Below, piece after piece: positions 22,480 to 27,424 of a stretch of DNA of 64,000 nt (position 1 is the stretch's first letter; every line of letters starts with the position of its first letter). Made by a program: the position numbers and the translations under genes. The notes under the pieces were generated by a model. That model ran no database searches. It was not told the origin of the DNA and saw nothing but the letters and a program-made list of their open reading frames with translations. The DNA is from the human T2T-CHM13v2.0 reference genome, Homo sapiens: NCBI RefSeq assembly GCF_009914755.1, contig NC_060936.1; one strand, written 5' to 3'.

Positions 22480-24398
22480 CAGTTGATATTGGATCTGTCC
22501 TTTTCTCCTATCTTAGAATTCTACCTTAGGATTTCAAAGTTCAAGGTCTGAGAGATGCCTTATAGCGATCTTCTCTTCCCCTCTCAACTCCAATGCCCCT
22601 GTCTTTCAAGCACTAACAGTTCCTAGTACCTTTCAGAATCACACTTACTCCTTAGCAATTTTTTTTTTCCCAGTGAGAAAAACCACATACATTTAAATTC
22701 AGGTACAAAAACATTGTCAACAGCTGAGAAGCTGCATCTCCAGCTAACTTTCTTACATATTTTAAAAATCAAACTCTTTATATGAGTCATTTTCAAATAA
22801 ACTCACTGGAAATACAGAGACTACAGTAATATGGTTTTCCTCATTTGCATACATAATTCATTACTAGGAAAATAAAATATTTAAAAGCATTAGCAGTAAT
22901 TAAGAAAGTCCAAAATAAACGTACAGTTACAATTACTGGTTGTGGTTGAATGATCTTCCTTGGAGACCTATGCTGTTTATGAGTGGGAGAGACAGAGTCT
23001 GTTTAAATTAACTTTTGAGTTTCTCCAGAAAATTAACATATGGGGATTTTCTTAATGAAACCACATTCTTCATAAAACCACTCATTTTAATGCACTTATT
23101 TATTGATGAGCTGCTAGGATTGTACACACATCTTGCCTTTACTTTCCAAAACCTGGGTTGCAGTGACTTTGTCTTGTCTTTTTCCATATGCTAATTGAAT
23201 TGCTAACTCAGCCATTTACATTGCTAATGTGCAAAGACATTAAGACAATAATAATAATTCTGCTACAGGTAGGAAATTCTTACTTTACATTCAGTACTCC
23301 CTGATGTCTTGTCAGACCACATTCTTATTTCCCATTTTCTACTGGAAATAAAATATAGATATTTGCAAATTTTGTAAGATCTAGTTTTCAGAGACTTCAT
23401 GGTTAAACAGCATTTATTAAGAAGCTGCTTTCTCCACAGCCCTGAATTTAATGAATAGAAGAAAAGTCCCCTTAAACTTCTGGGAAGTAATTTTCTTCAA
23501 GTCTCATAAAGGAGTAAAAATTATTGTTTGTTCCAATAAGCAGGTGAAGGAATGAAATAAATTCGAGTGTAATCTTCTTGTATCAAATTGCTATGTTCAG
23601 ATTGTTTCTTAGAAATGCTAGAAAGACTCAGATTGTCAAAGGCTAGGGATAAGAAAATATTGACTTGTGAGAATAAAAACCTTCTTTTTTTTCTTCTGAC
23701 TTTTATTTTAGCTTTGAGGATACATGTGCAGGTTTGTTACATGGGTAAATTGTGTGTTGCAGATGTTTGGTGTACAGATCATTTTGTCACCCAGGTAATG
23801 AGCCTAGTATCCAATAGGTAGTTTTTCTTTCTTTTTGTTTCAAACAATTATTTGCATGCTTTATTACTTGGTTCAATTATATACATTATTATACCAGTAA
23901 TAGGGGTTTTCTGGGAATTTACCAAATATAAAACAAGCAGAGAAACAAACAAAAACAATCTTTAAATAAAAGTATTTCCTCCATGGAAAAAAAAAACAAG
24001 TATTCAAATTAATTTTGTCTCTAACTAATGAAAACCTTTCTGGAAGAGTCCTATCATTTTCTTTTTGGCACCAAATTTATTCATAATTAAAAGTTCTGAC
24101 TTGTTGCTAATAAAAGATGTCAAAAATGATCTGAAGCACTGCTAAAATTAACCTTGAATTTTGACTGAAAGAAGAAAACCCAATAAATTGCAATTATGTC
24201 ATTCCATTTAAGCCTTGACATGATGCTTTTAGATGCTTTAATTTAGACTTTTAGATGCTTTAATTTGAAGATGTATTTGAAGGATTTTCCACTTAGTTCT
24301 TGATATTTTAGGGGGAAGACTTACATGATAATTAGGATAAAGCTTCTTGTTTTATTCTTTGAATGGATCTCCAGCAATCAGGAAGGCAGCTAGAGTGG

Positions 24399-24510
24399 TG
24401 TATTAGTCTGTTCTCACAATGCTAATAAAGACATACCCAAGGGTGGGTAGTTTATAAAAGAAAGAGGTTTAATTGACTCACAGTTCCACATGGCTGGGGA
24501 AACCTCATAA
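24399..24510 (-). mobile_element. THE1 LTR 3' part
   Basis: tgtattagtctgttctcac...ttaattgactcacagttccacatggctgggga. Confidence 0.85.
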
Positions 24511-24676
24511 ATAGTGTTCATCCCCTGAAATGATCTCAGGTTGCAAAACACAGTAGTTTATACCCAACCCAATGTTTGTAGGTTGGAATGTGGTGATTGC
24601 GATGGAAAAAAACAGTGGGTTTAGGGATGCAGAGAGGGGAGCATTGGGCCCTAAATTCAAGATGTCCCTCCTCATT

Positions 24677-25230
24677 TGATATGGTTTGGCTGTGTTCCCA
24701 CCCAAATCCCACAATGAATTGTAATAATTCCCATGTGTCAAGGGCAGGGCCAGGTGAAGATAATTGAATCACAGGAGCAGTTTCACCCACACTGTTCTCA
24801 TGGTAGTGAATAAGTCGCATGAGATCCGATGGTTATAAAAATGGGAGTTCCCCTGCACAAGCTCTCTTGCCTGCCACGATGTAAGATGTGACTTTGCTCC
24901 TCCTTTGCCTTCTTTTTTATTTTATTTTATTTTTGAGAAGAAGTCTTGCTCTGTCACCCAGGCTGGAGTGCAGTGGCACAATCTCAGCTCACTGCAACCT
25001 CTGCCCTTGGGGTTCAAGCGATTCTCGTGCCTTAGCCTCCTGAATAGCTGGGATTACAGGCATGCAGCACCACGCCTGGCTAATTTTTGTATTTTTAGTA
25101 GAGACAGGGTTTTGCCATGTTGGACAGGCTGGTTTTGAACTCCTGACCTCAAGTGATCCACTCTCCTCAGCCTCCCAAAGGGCTGAGATTACAGGTGTGA
25201 GCCACCATGTCTGGACTCCTTTGCCTTCTG
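24677..25230 (+). mobile_element. THE1 LTR 5' part, interrupted by an Alu
   Basis: tgatatggtttggctgtg...ctgccacgatgtaagatgtgactttgctcctcctttgccttct. Confidence 0.85.
24914..25216 (-). mobile_element. AluS, full length
   Basis: Dimer structure; TSD tcctttgccttct 24901-24913 / 25217-25229. Confidence 0.93.
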
Positions 25231-27424
25231 ATAGGTAGTTTTTTGATTCTCATCCTCACCCTCAACCCTCGAGTAGGTCCCAGTGTCCATTGTTCCATTC
25301 TTTGTGTCCATGTGTACTAAATGTTTAGCTTCCATTTATAAGTGAAAACATGTGGTATTTGGTTTTCTGTTCTTGTATTAATCCATTTAGGATAATGGCC
25401 GCCAGCTCCATCCATGTTGCGGCAAACGACATGATTTTATTTTATTTTTTTAGGGCTGCATGGTATTCCATGGTGTATATGTACCACATTTTCTTAATCC
25501 AGTCCACAATTGATAGGCATCTAGGTTGATTCCATGTCTTTGCTATTATTGTTAATAGTGCTGGGATGAACATACACGTGCATGTGTCTTCATGGCGAAC
25601 AGTTTATATTCATTTGGGTAAATATGCAGTAATGGGATTGCTGGGTTGACTGGTAGCTCTGTTTTAAGTTCTTCGAGAAATTGCCAAACTGCTTTCCACA
25701 GTGGCTGAATTAATTTACACTCCTGCCAACATTGTATAAGTGTTCTCTTTTCTCTGCAACCTTACCAGCATCTGTTATTTTCCTGACTTTTTAATAATAG
25801 CCATTTTGACTGGTGTGAGATGGTATCTCATTGTGGTTTTGATTTGCATTGCTCTAATGATTAGAGATGCTGAGTATATTTTTGTAAATTTGTTAGCTGT
25901 GTGTATATCTTCTAAGAAATGTCTGTTCATGTTCTTTGTCCATTTTTTAAATGGGGTTATTTGTTTTCTGCTTGTTGATTTGTTCAAGTTCCTTATAGAT
26001 TTTGGACATTGGACCTTTGTCAGATGCATAGTTTGCAAATATCTTCTCTCAATCTGCAGGTTGTCTGTTTACTCAGTTGATAGTTTCTTTTACTGTGAAG
26101 AGATGCTCTTTTGTTTAATTAGGTCTCACTTGTTAATTTTTTGTTTTTGTTGCAATTGCTTTTGGAGTCTTCATAATGAAATCTTTGCCAGGGCTGATGT
26201 CCAGAATGGTATTTCCTAGGTTTTCTTCTAGGGTTTTTATAGTTTTAGGTTTTACATTTAAGTTTCTAATTCATCTTGAGTTGATTTTTGTATATGGTGA
26301 AAGGAAAGGGTCCAGTTTCAATCTTCTGCATATGGCTAGCATGTTATCTCAGCACCATTTATTGAATAGGGAATCCCTTCTCCATTGCTTATTTTGTTGG
26401 CTTTGTCAAAGATCAGATGGTTGGAGGTGTGCGGCATTATTTCTCTACCCTGTTCCATAGGTCTATATGTCTCTTTTTTGTATTGTTCTATGCCATTTGG
26501 TTACTGTAGCCTTGTGGTATAGTTTGAAGTCAGGTAGCATGATGCATCCAGTTTTGTTCTTTTTGCTTATGATTGCTTTGGCTATTTGGGCTCCTTTTTG
26601 GTTTTCATATTAATTTTAGAAAAGTTTTTTTCTAATTCTATGAAAAACGTCATTAGTTCCATAGAAATAGCCTTGAATCTGTAAATTGCTTTGGGTAGTA
26701 TGGCCATTTTGCCAATGTTGATTCTTCCTATTCATGAGCATGGAATGTTTTTCTATTTGTTTGTGTTATCTCTGTTTTCTTTCAGCAGTGTTTTGTAATT
26801 CTCACTGTGGAGATCTTCACTTCCCTGGCTACCTGTGTTCCTGGGTATTTTTGTTCAACATTCCTTTGGTGGCTATTATGAATGGAATTGTGTTCTTGAT
26901 TTGGCTCTCAGCTTGGATGTTGTTAGTGTATAGAAATGCTACCAGCTTTTAAAAATTGATTTTGTTTCCTGAAATTTTGTTAGAGTTGTTTATCAGATCT
27001 AGGAGCCTTTGGGAAGAGACATTTGGATTTTCTAGGTATAGAATCGTATCATCTGCAGAGATAGTTTGACTGCCTCTCTTCCTATTTAGATGCCTTCTTT
27101 TTTTTTCATTTGCTTGATTGTTCTGGCTAGGACTTCCTAAAATCCTTCAAGTTGGGAAGATTCAAGACTTACCAGATTTATGTCTTTTTTGGAGGTGATG
27201 ATAGGATGGTCCTCTAAAGAAGAAAAGAAGAAATTTATAGTTTTACAGTGTAACATATTTGGGAAACAGTGAGGGAAACATTAGGAGTATATGGTCTCTT
27301 CCCCAATGAATAGCCCCTTGCTGAAAAATAACTTGTATCAGTAGTTGTGGAGCAAGAGTAGGTTTACCTCAACCCAAACTTTGGTTCTTAAAATGTTTAA
27401 TGTTATAGGCGTTTTACTCACATC

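What the first reader, a model, noticed from the sequence alone, without database searches (positions are those of the whole stretch)
23814..25243. 5'-inverted, poly(A)-tailed retrocopy of a non-L1 transcript that carried a THE1 LTR to a new site
Seen: an old L1PA 3'UTR is interrupted by a 1.4-kb insert. It is bounded by a 13-bp direct repeat ATAGGTAGTTTTT (23814-23826 / 25231-25243) at an L1-EN-like TTTT/GA site. On the - strand it ends with AATAAA (23860-23865) about 19 nt before a decayed poly(A) (23827-23840). One THE1 LTR is cut in two: its 3' half lies on - (24399-~24510) and its 5' half on + (24677-25230). The halves abut in THE1 coordinates with only ~6-9 nt missing. The LTR's own 5-bp TSD survives in decayed form (tcatt vs ccact). 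Established: this geometry is the twin-priming inversion of L1 TPRT. Inference: the template RNA was unique(~170 nt)-THE1-unique(~570 nt)-poly(A), i.e. a cellular 3'UTR/lncRNA or an orphan transduction, so an LTR was moved by L1 machinery. An AluS then inserted 1 nt from the junction, giving a datable nest (L1PA, then retrocopy, then AluS). Repeat annotation would probably show only unrelated fragments.
Basis: partly seen in the sequence, partly recalled or inferred. Interest (0 to 1): 0.82.

Follow-up and report, generated by a model that had tools for sequence, protein, structure and literature searches.

The report
Inverted retrocopy carrying a split LTR
A 1.4-kb insert in an old L1 is an L1-made, 5'-inverted copy of the tail of a chromosome 18 transcript; it is an ordinary kind of event, except that the LTR it carries is missing from the only surviving parent locus.

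Summary
The 13-bp repeat is a true target-site duplication: related L1 copies carry that 13-mer once. On the minus strand the insert ends in AATAAA and a short A-rich tail. One ~356-nt LTR is cut in two oppositely oriented parts that abut to within 6 nt. An Alu with its own 14-bp duplication lies 1 nt from the junction.

Both "unique" parts have one other copy in the genome, on chr18 (C18:4106820-4107527, minus strand; 86% and 78% identity). There they are colinear and end at an AATAAA with no encoded A-tail, so chr18 is parent-type and the insert is a retrocopy with twin-priming geometry.

The twist is that the chr18 locus has no LTR. It is the exact empty site, with a single 5-mer where chr12 has two flanking the LTR.

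My reading (about 0.65): the template RNA came from an LTR-bearing version of the chr18 locus, either an allele or a duplicate, that no longer exists. The main rival (about 0.12) is that the LTR entered the retrocopy later and an inversion then happened to break exactly at the duplication boundary. Divergence dating cannot order the two events; other primate genomes can.

This is a new member of a known kind, of modest interest.

The parts
23690..23813 (-). Host L1, 3' terminal part, left of the insert
   Evidence: Aligns at 75-84% to related L1 copies L020-L032. The L1 A-tail shows as a T-run near 23684-23692.
23814..23826 (.). Left copy of the 13-bp target-site duplication ATAGGTAGTTTTT
   Evidence: family D7. 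Present once in related L1 copies.
23827..23839 (-). Decayed poly(A) tail of the retrocopy (AACAAAAAGAAAG, 10 A of 13)
   Evidence: Homology to chr18 stops here; chr18 continues with non-A sequence.
23840..24398 (-). Non-inverted arm, unique part. It is a copy of chr18 C18:4106820-4107372 and includes the LTR flanking 5-mer CCACT (24394-24398).
   Evidence: 86% identity over 554 of 558 nt, the only other hit in the genome. Alignment. 62 differences in 537 aligned sites.
23860..23865 (-). AATAAA poly(A) signal, conserved in chr18
24399..24510 (-). LTR 3' part, running to the ...ATACA terminus
   Evidence: 82-92% identity to 11 intact LTR copies. Alignment A3.
24511..24519 (.). 9 nt (ATAGTGTTC) at the arm-to-arm junction, assigned neither to the LTR nor to chr18
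   Evidence: Its likeness to the 13-mer is not significant.
24520..24676 (+). Inverted arm, unique part. It is a copy of chr18 C18:4107368-4107527 and includes the LTR flanking 5-mer TCATT (24672-24676).
   Evidence: 78% identity, the only other hit in the genome. Alignment. 27 differences in 153 aligned sites.
24677..24913 (+). LTR 5' part, starting at the TGATATGG terminus. Its last 14 nt (24900-24913) are the first copy of the Alu duplication.
   Evidence: 87.6-89.3% identity to 11 intact LTR copies.
24914..25215 (-). Alu inserted later, with its A-tail at 24914-24935
   Evidence: Flanked by the 14-nt duplication (D5). Two monomers (D1). 86-90% identity to 39 full-length copies listed of 40 scored, from 5946 candidates.
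25216..25230 (+). Last 15 nt of the LTR 5' part (second copy of the Alu duplication plus g), abutting the right duplication
   Evidence: 100% match over 15 nt to LTR copies L009, L015 and L018, in register with the 5' part.
25231..25243 (.). Right copy of the 13-bp target-site duplication
   Evidence: family D7.
25244..25700 (-). Host L1, right of the insert. It continues beyond 25700.
   Evidence: 80-84% identity to 39 related L1 copies listed.

Best explanation
The insert 23827-25230 was made in one L1 target-primed reverse transcription event. The template was the last ~1.08 kb of a polyadenylated RNA from a locus of the chr18 type (C18:4106820-4107527, minus strand).

Proposed sequence of steps:
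- L1 endonuclease nicked a T-run in the 3' end of an older L1.
- The first cDNA was primed on the poly(A) tail and copied the 3' unique stretch plus the last ~112 nt of an LTR.
- The second target strand primed internally, 6 nt further upstream on the same RNA, and copied the first ~244 nt of the LTR plus ~157 nt of upstream unique sequence.
- Joining the two cDNAs gave a 5'-inverted retrocopy between 13-bp duplications.
- An Alu later landed 1 nt from the 5' junction.

The template therefore carried a solo LTR, integrated with a 5-bp duplication at the site that reads CCTCT in chr18 today. The surviving chr18 locus is the empty site. So the template was an LTR-bearing allele, or a duplicate of that locus, that has since been lost.

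Shown: the retrocopy hallmarks, the chr18 parent-type locus, the empty site, and the arm geometry. Inferred: that the LTR was in the RNA, and how the LTR-bearing template disappeared.
For: - The 13-bp duplication is single-copy in related L1s.
- An A-rich tail begins 20 nt after AATAAA exactly where homology to chr18 ends. chr18 has the same AATAAA but no A-run.
- Each unique part has one other hit in the 3.1-Gb genome. The two hits are adjacent and colinear on chr18: L002 2192-2039, then 2037-1501.
- The LTR ends (TG.../...CA) abut the unique parts. Each side keeps one copy of the chr18 5-mer position with no change in length (16 nt against 16 nt), as an integrase event would leave.
- The inverted arm sits directly against the 5' duplication with no spare base. 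The two arms are 6 nt apart in LTR coordinates.
- That is the common twin-priming pattern. In 132 of 287 inverted L1 insertions the two cDNA ends lay within 20 bp, and 3 of 23 polymorphic processed pseudogenes were 5'-inverted (PMC12016303, section 8 and passages). An experimental twin-primed OSBPL8 mRNA insertion had arms 12 nt apart (preprint 10.1101/2024.12.14.628481, passages).
- Both LTR parts sit equally well among the same 11 reference copies. The ratio of our-copy-to-reference distance over reference-to-reference distance is 1.22 for the 5' part and 1.09 for the 3' part.
Against: - The only other copy of the unique sequence in this genome has no LTR. No third copy was found (2 of 2 candidates scored in each).
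- The chr18 flanks have no paralog elsewhere. Only repeats matched, though just 40 of 3942 and 40 of 1120 candidates were scored. The required template is therefore hypothetical.
- Dating does not place the LTR before the retrocopy. LTR branch length is 0.074 (5' part) and 0.085 (3' part). Half the chr12-chr18 distance is about 0.071. With CpG sites left out the values are 0.052/0.074 against 0.068.
- No clear microhomology was seen at the internal priming site.
- 9 nt at the arm junction are unexplained.
Confidence: 0.65

Rival explanations
1. A plain, un-inverted, 5'-truncated retrocopy of the LTR-free chr18 RNA inserted into the L1. An LTR element then integrated into it at chr12 with a 5-bp duplication and became, or already was, a solo LTR. 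Later an inversion of about 720 bp, by two breaks and end joining, flipped the stretch between the middle of the LTR and the 5' end of the retrocopy. It lost 6 nt and gained 9 nt.
For: - It needs no vanished template, because the extant chr18 parent is LTR-free.
- LTR age and retrocopy age are indistinguishable.
- A 6-nt loss and a 9-nt filler are usual for end joining.
Against: - One inversion breakpoint would have to fall exactly at the inner edge of the 13-bp duplication, with no base lost or left over. No inverted repeat lies at the breakpoints that could explain this.
- My rough odds put this coincidence two to three orders of magnitude below the lost-template reading. That estimate is reasoning, not a tool result.
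- Twin priming yields exactly this breakpoint as a rule.
Confidence: 0.12
2. The mechanism is the same as in the best explanation, but the LTR was fixed at chr18 and later removed there by a precise deletion between its two 5-bp duplications, restoring the empty site.
For: - The chr18 site is a clean empty site with one 5-mer.
- Precise removal of retroelements between short identical segments is described in primates. This is recalled (van de Lagemaat et al. 2005, not read here). only listed papers on homoplasy and precise deletion.
Against: Precise loss between repeats as short as 5 bp should be very rare, and nothing in the chr18 sequence marks a deletion.
Confidence: 0.06
3. The template was not a cellular transcript but an orphan 3' transduction. 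On this reading an L1 upstream of the chr18 segment read through to the downstream AATAAA, and only the transduced part was copied.
For: An L1 fragment lies on the same (minus) strand 6.3 kb upstream, at C18:4113680-4114096.
Against: - That fragment is only ~420-450 nt long, 73% identical to the host L1, and has no L1 body attached.
- tblastn with 70 six-frame pieces of a 5.2-kb L1 found nothing else in C18:4098000-4117999 except a young 139-nt L1 3' piece downstream.
- The distance to the poly(A) site, about 6.7 kb, is long for a transduction.
Confidence: 0.04
4. The insert is a DNA-level copy, such as a templated repair patch or small duplication, not a retrocopy.
For: No intron was removed within the copied stretch, so processing cannot be shown.
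Against: - Homology to chr18 ends at a poly(A) site 20 nt after AATAAA and is followed by an A-rich run absent from chr18.
- The insert has a 13-bp duplication that starts with A5 at a T-run nick site.
Confidence: 0.02

Closest known systems
5'-inverted (twin-primed) processed pseudogenes and L1 insertions
   Same: Target-site duplication, poly(A) tail, T-run nick site, an inverted 5' arm against the 5' duplication, and arms contiguous in the template to within a few nt. For comparison, 3 of 23 polymorphic processed pseudogenes were inverted and 132 of 287 inverted L1s had arm ends within 20 bp (PMC12016303, passages and section 8). An experimental twin-primed OSBPL8 mRNA had a 12-nt gap (preprint 10.1101/2024.12.14.628481, passages). 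The model is Ostertag & Kazazian 2001, cited there; that paper is not held and is otherwise recalled.
   Different: The template is an unannotated, apparently non-coding 3' end with no intron in the copied part. The breakpoint falls inside an LTR that the extant parent lacks.
Processed pseudogenes that carry a transposable element embedded in the parent's 3' UTR
   Same: A repeat rides passively inside a cellular RNA copied by L1. For Alu in 3' UTRs see PMC5199112; I saw only the title and abstract start in the search listing.
   Different: Here the passenger is an LTR, not an Alu, and the parent no longer shows it.
Chimeric retrocopies made by L1 reverse-transcriptase template switching (recalled; Buzdin and colleagues; U6 chimeras in PMC4476161, listing only)
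   Same: Two unrelated sequences end up joined inside one duplication-flanked insert.
   Different: In those chimeras the parts lie in the same orientation and join at RNA ends. Here the complete LTR termini abut the unique parts with a 5-bp duplication, which is the mark of an integrase event in DNA. I reject this reading.
Orphan L1 3' transductions
   Same: Unique, poly(A)-tailed, duplication-flanked sequence with no L1 part.
   Different: No competent L1 lies upstream of the source.

Membership tests
L1-mediated retrocopy (target-primed reverse transcription) | Target-site duplication of about 7-20 bp that is single-copy in the empty site | tested here: met
   13 bp, 100% identical. One copy in all 13 related L1 junctions printed; exact 13-nt overlap of the flank alignments in 5 of 13.
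L1-mediated retrocopy (target-primed reverse transcription) | Poly(A) tail not encoded at the source, downstream of a poly(A) signal | tested here: met
   AATAAA at 23860-65, then an A-rich 13 nt at 23827-39. chr18 has the AATAAA but continues TTTGCCTTGG.... The tail is short and decayed.
L1-mediated retrocopy (target-primed reverse transcription) | Endonuclease-type nick site (TTTT/A, TTTT/G) | tested here: inconclusive
   The empty site reads ...GTAGTTTTT(T)/GATTC. The nick is TTTTT/T or TTTTTT/G, depending on whether the sixth T belongs to the duplication. It is compatible with the motif set used in PMC12016303 but not unique to it.
L1-mediated retrocopy (target-primed reverse transcription) | A source locus elsewhere, colinear with the copy | tested here: met
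   C18:4106836-4107372 (86%) and 4107374-4107527 (78%), adjacent and colinear. These are the only other hits.
L1-mediated retrocopy (target-primed reverse transcription) | Loss of introns (a 'processed' copy) | not testable with these tools
   The copied ~720 nt of unique sequence are colinear with genomic chr18, so no intron lies within them. No transcript data were on hand.
Twin-priming 5' inversion | The inverted arm lies directly against the 5' duplication and the non-inverted arm carries the tail | tested here: met
   The LTR 5' part ends at 25230 and the duplication starts at 25231. The tail lies at 23827-39.
Twin-priming 5' inversion | The two arms are adjacent in the template, with a small gap or overlap | tested here: inconclusive
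   They are adjacent within 6 nt in LTR coordinates, measured against intact LTR copies. But the only extant source locus has no LTR, so contiguity in the real template cannot be shown.
LTR of a MaLR/THE1-type element (name recalled, not tested) | TG...CA termini, about 350 nt, thousands of copies, 5-bp target duplication | tested here: met
   - Termini TGATATGG... and ...ATACA.
- 356 nt in reference L009, positions 1501-1856.
- 6989 first-look candidates, 40 scored, at 87-89%.
- The 5-mer is single in chr18 and double in chr12; the two chr12 copies match at 3 of 5 positions.
- Subfamily not tested.
Orphan L1 3' transduction | A full-length L1 in sense orientation just upstream of the source segment | tested here: not met
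   Only a ~420-450-nt old L1 fragment lies 6.3 kb upstream. There are no other L1 matches in the 10.5 kb upstream.
   302 nt, with monomers 135 nt apart at 71% identity (D1), a T-run at 24914-35 and a 14-nt duplication (D5). 5946 candidates in the genome. Subfamily not tested.

The most novel reading that the evidence does not exclude
The retrocopy is the only surviving record of an LTR integration that never became fixed. An LTR-bearing allele of the chr18 locus was transcribed and copied by L1 into chr12, and then vanished from the population while the empty allele went to fixation. On this reading retrocopies can act as fossils of extinct insertion alleles. It also means that an LTR can sit at a site it never integrated into, while its true integration site looks untouched.
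Probability: 0.35. Interest if true: 0.5.

Novelty: new member of a known kind. Interest (0 to 1): 0.35.

Why it matters
As a retrocopy it is ordinary. L1 copies cellular RNAs, about one in eight such copies is 5'-inverted, and repeats embedded in the RNA ride along.

Three points give it some value:
- It is a clean worked example that repeat masking shows only as unrelated fragments. NCBI masks only 23676-23845 and 24785-25250 in this stretch.
- It forms a datable four-layer nest: L1, LTR plus retrocopy, then Alu.
- The parent locus is the empty site for the LTR. If the lost-template reading is right, retrocopies can preserve transposon-insertion alleles that the parent locus no longer shows.

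That third point is a small caution for presence/absence phylogenetics and for dating LTR integrations from where they now lie. No function is suggested for the insert; no gene is annotated there.

Tried and rejected
- **Dating to order the LTR integration and the retrocopy.** I used star-decomposition of pairwise Jukes-Cantor distances and built no consensus. Host L1 came out at 0.104, the LTR at 0.074 (5' part) and 0.085 (3' part), the Alu at 0.061, and half the chr12-chr18 distance at about 0.071. The LTR and the retrocopy cannot be ordered. The reference copies were the best-scoring 11-13 of 40 scored, so the branch lengths are probably underestimates.
- **A third copy, or a paralog of the chr18 flanks, as a relic of a lost duplicate.** None was found. 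In some searches all 40 scored candidates were taken up by interspersed repeats, so a weak paralog could have been missed.
- **Orphan transduction.** Rejected.
- **Template-switch chimera between a chr18 RNA and an LTR-element RNA.** Rejected. The LTR is complete at both termini and flanked by a 5-bp duplication of the chr18 site.
- **Twin priming of an LTR-free RNA with LTR pieces added afterwards.** Rejected for the same reason.
- **The Alu insertion as the cause of the inversion.** Rejected. The Alu has a normal, perfect 14-nt duplication of its own.
- **The 9 unassigned nt at 24511-24519 as a copy of the 13-mer.** Not significant. A longest common subsequence of 8 or more occurs in 869 of 20000 random 9-mers and in 137 of 2232 real 9-mers of the region. 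One search used a span shifted by one base and is void.
- **Microhomology at the internal priming site.** None convincing, by eye.
- **Ostertag & Kazazian 2001.** Not held.
- **Name of the parent gene.** GKAP-domain exons of a DLGAP-family gene lie at C18:3658698-3727124 on the minus strand. The parent segment lies about 380 kb upstream of them on the same strand. That this falls inside a long DLGAP1 intron is my recollection, not a tool result.
- **Literature on this locus.** Of 50 papers holding at least two of 'DLGAP1', 'processed pseudogene' and 'twin priming', none of the 8 listed mentions DLGAP1.

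
Full report
**1. What is in the sequence**

Window 23690-26400 is an old L1 lying on the minus strand. 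Its continuity is broken between 23826 and 25231.

The break is bounded by a perfect 13-nt direct repeat, ATAGGTAGTTTTT, at 23814-23826 and 25231-25243. To test whether this is a target-site duplication I fetched 13 related L1 copies and aligned the left and right flanks to them separately.
- In every printed junction the left-flank homolog runs straight into the right-flank homolog through one copy of the 13-mer.
- In 5 of the 13 copies (L022, L026, L028, L031, L032) both alignments reach their ends and overlap by exactly 13 nt.
- In the other 8 the alignments stop a few bases short, or, for L025, the left flank matched a second L1 copy in the locus.

So the 13-mer was duplicated by the insertion, and the insert is younger than the L1.

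**2. Anatomy of the insert, read on the minus strand (the orientation of the tail)**

- The 5' duplication.
- The reverse complement of the first ~244 nt of an LTR (25230 back to 24677). It is interrupted by an Alu (24914-25215) that has its own perfect 14-nt duplication (D5).
- The reverse complement of 157 nt of unique sequence (24676-24520).
- 9 unassigned nt (24519-24511).
- The last 112 nt of the same LTR in sense orientation (24510-24399).
- 559 nt of unique sequence (24398-23840) containing AATAAA (23865-23860).
- A 13-nt A-rich remnant (23839-23827).
- The 3' duplication, which starts with A5.

I compared the LTR parts with 11 intact copies of the LTR family, the best of 40 scored from 6989 candidates. 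The 5' part ends at ...CCTTCTG and the 3' part resumes 6 nt later. This gap was seen in 3 of the 3 references in which the 15-nt post-Alu tail also aligned (L009, L015, L018); that tail aligned in 3 of the 11 references.

Both parts behave as ordinary members of the same set of copies. Mean distance to the references is 0.125 against 0.102 among the references for the 5' part, and 0.157 against 0.144 for the 3' part. I see no sign of two subfamilies.

**3. The source**

Each unique part was searched against the whole assembly. Each has exactly one other hit. The hits are C18:4106836-4107372 (86% identity, 554 of 558 nt) and C18:4107374-4107527 (78%, 151 of 166 nt), both on the minus strand.

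On chr18 the two parts are adjacent and colinear. The chr18 sequence has the same AATAAA. Past the point where chr12 turns into the A-rich run and the duplication, chr18 continues with ...TTTGA|TTTGCCTTGGAAAATGAC.

chr18 is therefore a genomic, parent-type locus with a poly(A) signal and no encoded tail, and chr12 is an RNA-derived copy. Upstream, chr18 continues beyond the point where chr12 homology stops, as expected for 5' truncation of the inverted arm.

**4. The twist**

Between the two parts chr18 has no LTR. Read in sense, chr18 is ...GACGTCTCTCTCCTCT|CTAGCTGCC.... In chr12 the upstream part ends ...GATGTCCCTCCTCATT, followed by the LTR start. After the LTR end comes CCACT CTAGCTGCC.

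Both sides thus keep the position of the chr18 5-mer CCTCT (C18:4107368-4107372) with no change in length. This is what a 5-bp integrase duplication looks like, now decayed to 3 of 5 matches between the two copies.

The LTR was therefore a genuine integration into chr18-type DNA, and today's chr18 is the exact empty site.

**5. How it most likely arose**

The inverted arm touches the 5' duplication without a spare base. The two arms are 6 nt apart in template (LTR) coordinates. The non-inverted arm carries the tail. This is the twin-priming outcome.

It is common. 18-22% of L1 insertions and 3 of 23 polymorphic processed pseudogenes are 5'-inverted, and in 132 of 287 inverted L1s the cDNA ends lay within 20 bp of each other (PMC12016303, passages and section 8). 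A twin-primed OSBPL8 mRNA insertion caught in culture had its arms 12 nt apart (preprint 10.1101/2024.12.14.628481, passages).

If twin priming made the inversion, the LTR was already in the RNA. The template was then an LTR-bearing version of the chr18 locus that this genome no longer holds. It could have been:
- an allele that was later lost,
- a duplicate locus that was later deleted, or
- least likely, the chr18 locus itself before a precise deletion.

I found no third copy and no paralog of the chr18 flanks. In some searches the 40 scored candidates were all interspersed repeats, so that search is not exhaustive.

**6. The main rival**

In the rival reading a plain retrocopy of the LTR-free RNA inserted first, the LTR integrated into it at chr12, and a later inversion flipped the stretch from mid-LTR to the retrocopy's 5' end.

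This needs no vanished template. It does need a random breakpoint to fall exactly on the inner edge of the duplication. No inverted repeats lie at the breakpoints.

My rough odds are reasoning only. A fixed sub-kilobase inversion with one exact breakpoint, multiplied by the chance of an LTR landing in 720 bp, comes out two to three orders of magnitude below the chance that a retrocopied haplotype carried a private LTR. I put the template-with-LTR reading at about 0.65-0.7 and the rival at about 0.12.

**7. Dating**

I built no consensus. Branch lengths come from star-decomposition of pairwise Jukes-Cantor distances.

| Element | All sites | CpG sites left out |
|---|---|---|
| Host L1 | 0.104 | 0.084-0.093 |
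| LTR 5' part | 0.074 | 0.052 |
| LTR 3' part | 0.085 | 0.074 |
| Alu | 0.061 | 0.045 |

chr12 and chr18 differ at 62 of 537 sites in the 3' part and 27 of 153 in the 5' part. Pooled, that is 89 of 690, a Jukes-Cantor distance of about 0.14, or about 0.07 per lineage.

The order L1 > (LTR, retrocopy) > Alu fits the nest. The LTR and the retrocopy cannot be ordered, so dating does not decide between the two readings. The reference copies were chosen as best matches, so absolute values are probably low.

**8. What the template RNA was**

Within 10.5 kb upstream on chr18 there is only a ~420-450-nt old L1 fragment, on the same strand and 6.3 kb away. There is also an LTR of a related family on the opposite strand, several Alus and one other repeat. 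No L1 body is present, so an orphan 3' transduction is not supported.

GKAP-domain exons of a DLGAP-family gene lie at C18:3658698-3727124 on the same strand, about 380 kb downstream in the sense of transcription. From memory, the long isoforms of DLGAP1 start further upstream. If so, the parent segment would lie in a DLGAP1 intron in sense orientation. I could not test this or see transcript data. The copied stretch contains no intron, so 'processed' cannot be shown.

**9. Comparison with known kinds, and verdict**

The insert meets the defining features of an L1-mediated retrocopy: duplication, tail, signal and source locus. The nick site is compatible. It has the geometry of twin priming. 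The one feature that cannot be shown is arm contiguity in the real template, because the extant source lacks the LTR.

It is not a template-switch chimera, because the LTR has complete termini and a 5-bp duplication. It is not an orphan transduction either.

It is a new member of a known kind. Its one unusual aspect is a passenger LTR whose original integration site now looks untouched. Of 50 papers holding at least two of 'DLGAP1', 'processed pseudogene' and 'twin priming', none of the 8 listed mentions DLGAP1. I did not search more widely, so I make no claim that this locus is unpublished.

Interest: 0.35.

Noticed in passing
window 24511-24519: Nine nt (ATAGTGTTC) between the two arms match neither the LTR references nor chr18. 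Their first four bases equal the first four of the 13-mer duplication, but the overall likeness is not significant: 869 of 20000 random and 137 of 2232 real 9-mers do as well.
   Followed up: yes
window 24226-24244 and 24248-24266: A perfect 19-nt repeat spaced 22 nt apart inside the retrocopy (D4). chr18 has one copy, seen as a 16-column gap. This is a small tandem duplication in chr12 after insertion, or a deletion in chr18.
   Followed up: partly
window 23840-24398 versus 24520-24676: The inverted arm's unique part is more diverged from chr18 (27 of 153 sites) than the non-inverted arm's (62 of 537 sites). By my rough z-test p is about 0.05. G+C content is 0.45 against 0.29, which may explain the difference.
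   Followed up: partly
window 23840-23860 / L002 1490-1500: chr18 has 11 nt (ATCAAATCTAT) between AATAATTG and TTTGA that chr12 lacks. The cleavage site is therefore 20 nt after AATAAA in chr12 and 31 nt after it in chr18.
   Followed up: no
G000:C18:4105983-4106121 (L003/L051): A 139-nt L1 3'-end piece lies about 0.7 kb downstream of the parent poly(A) site. It is 94-100% identical (97% or more in 37 of 39 listed hits) to L1 copies at many loci, so it is a very young, severely truncated L1 insertion.
   Followed up: no
G000:C18:4111918-4112291: An LTR related to the one in the insert (69% and 83% identity to its two parts) lies on the plus strand 4.4 kb upstream of the parent segment, antisense to the parent transcript. 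It is not the missing LTR.
   Followed up: partly
G000:C18:4108936-4109290: A ~340-nt interspersed repeat with many copies at 78-86% identity lies 1.4 kb upstream of the parent segment. Family not identified.
   Followed up: no
window 58459-58554: A partial match (83% over 98 nt) to the LTR 3' part lies elsewhere in the window. It is probably another LTR of the same superfamily.
   Followed up: no
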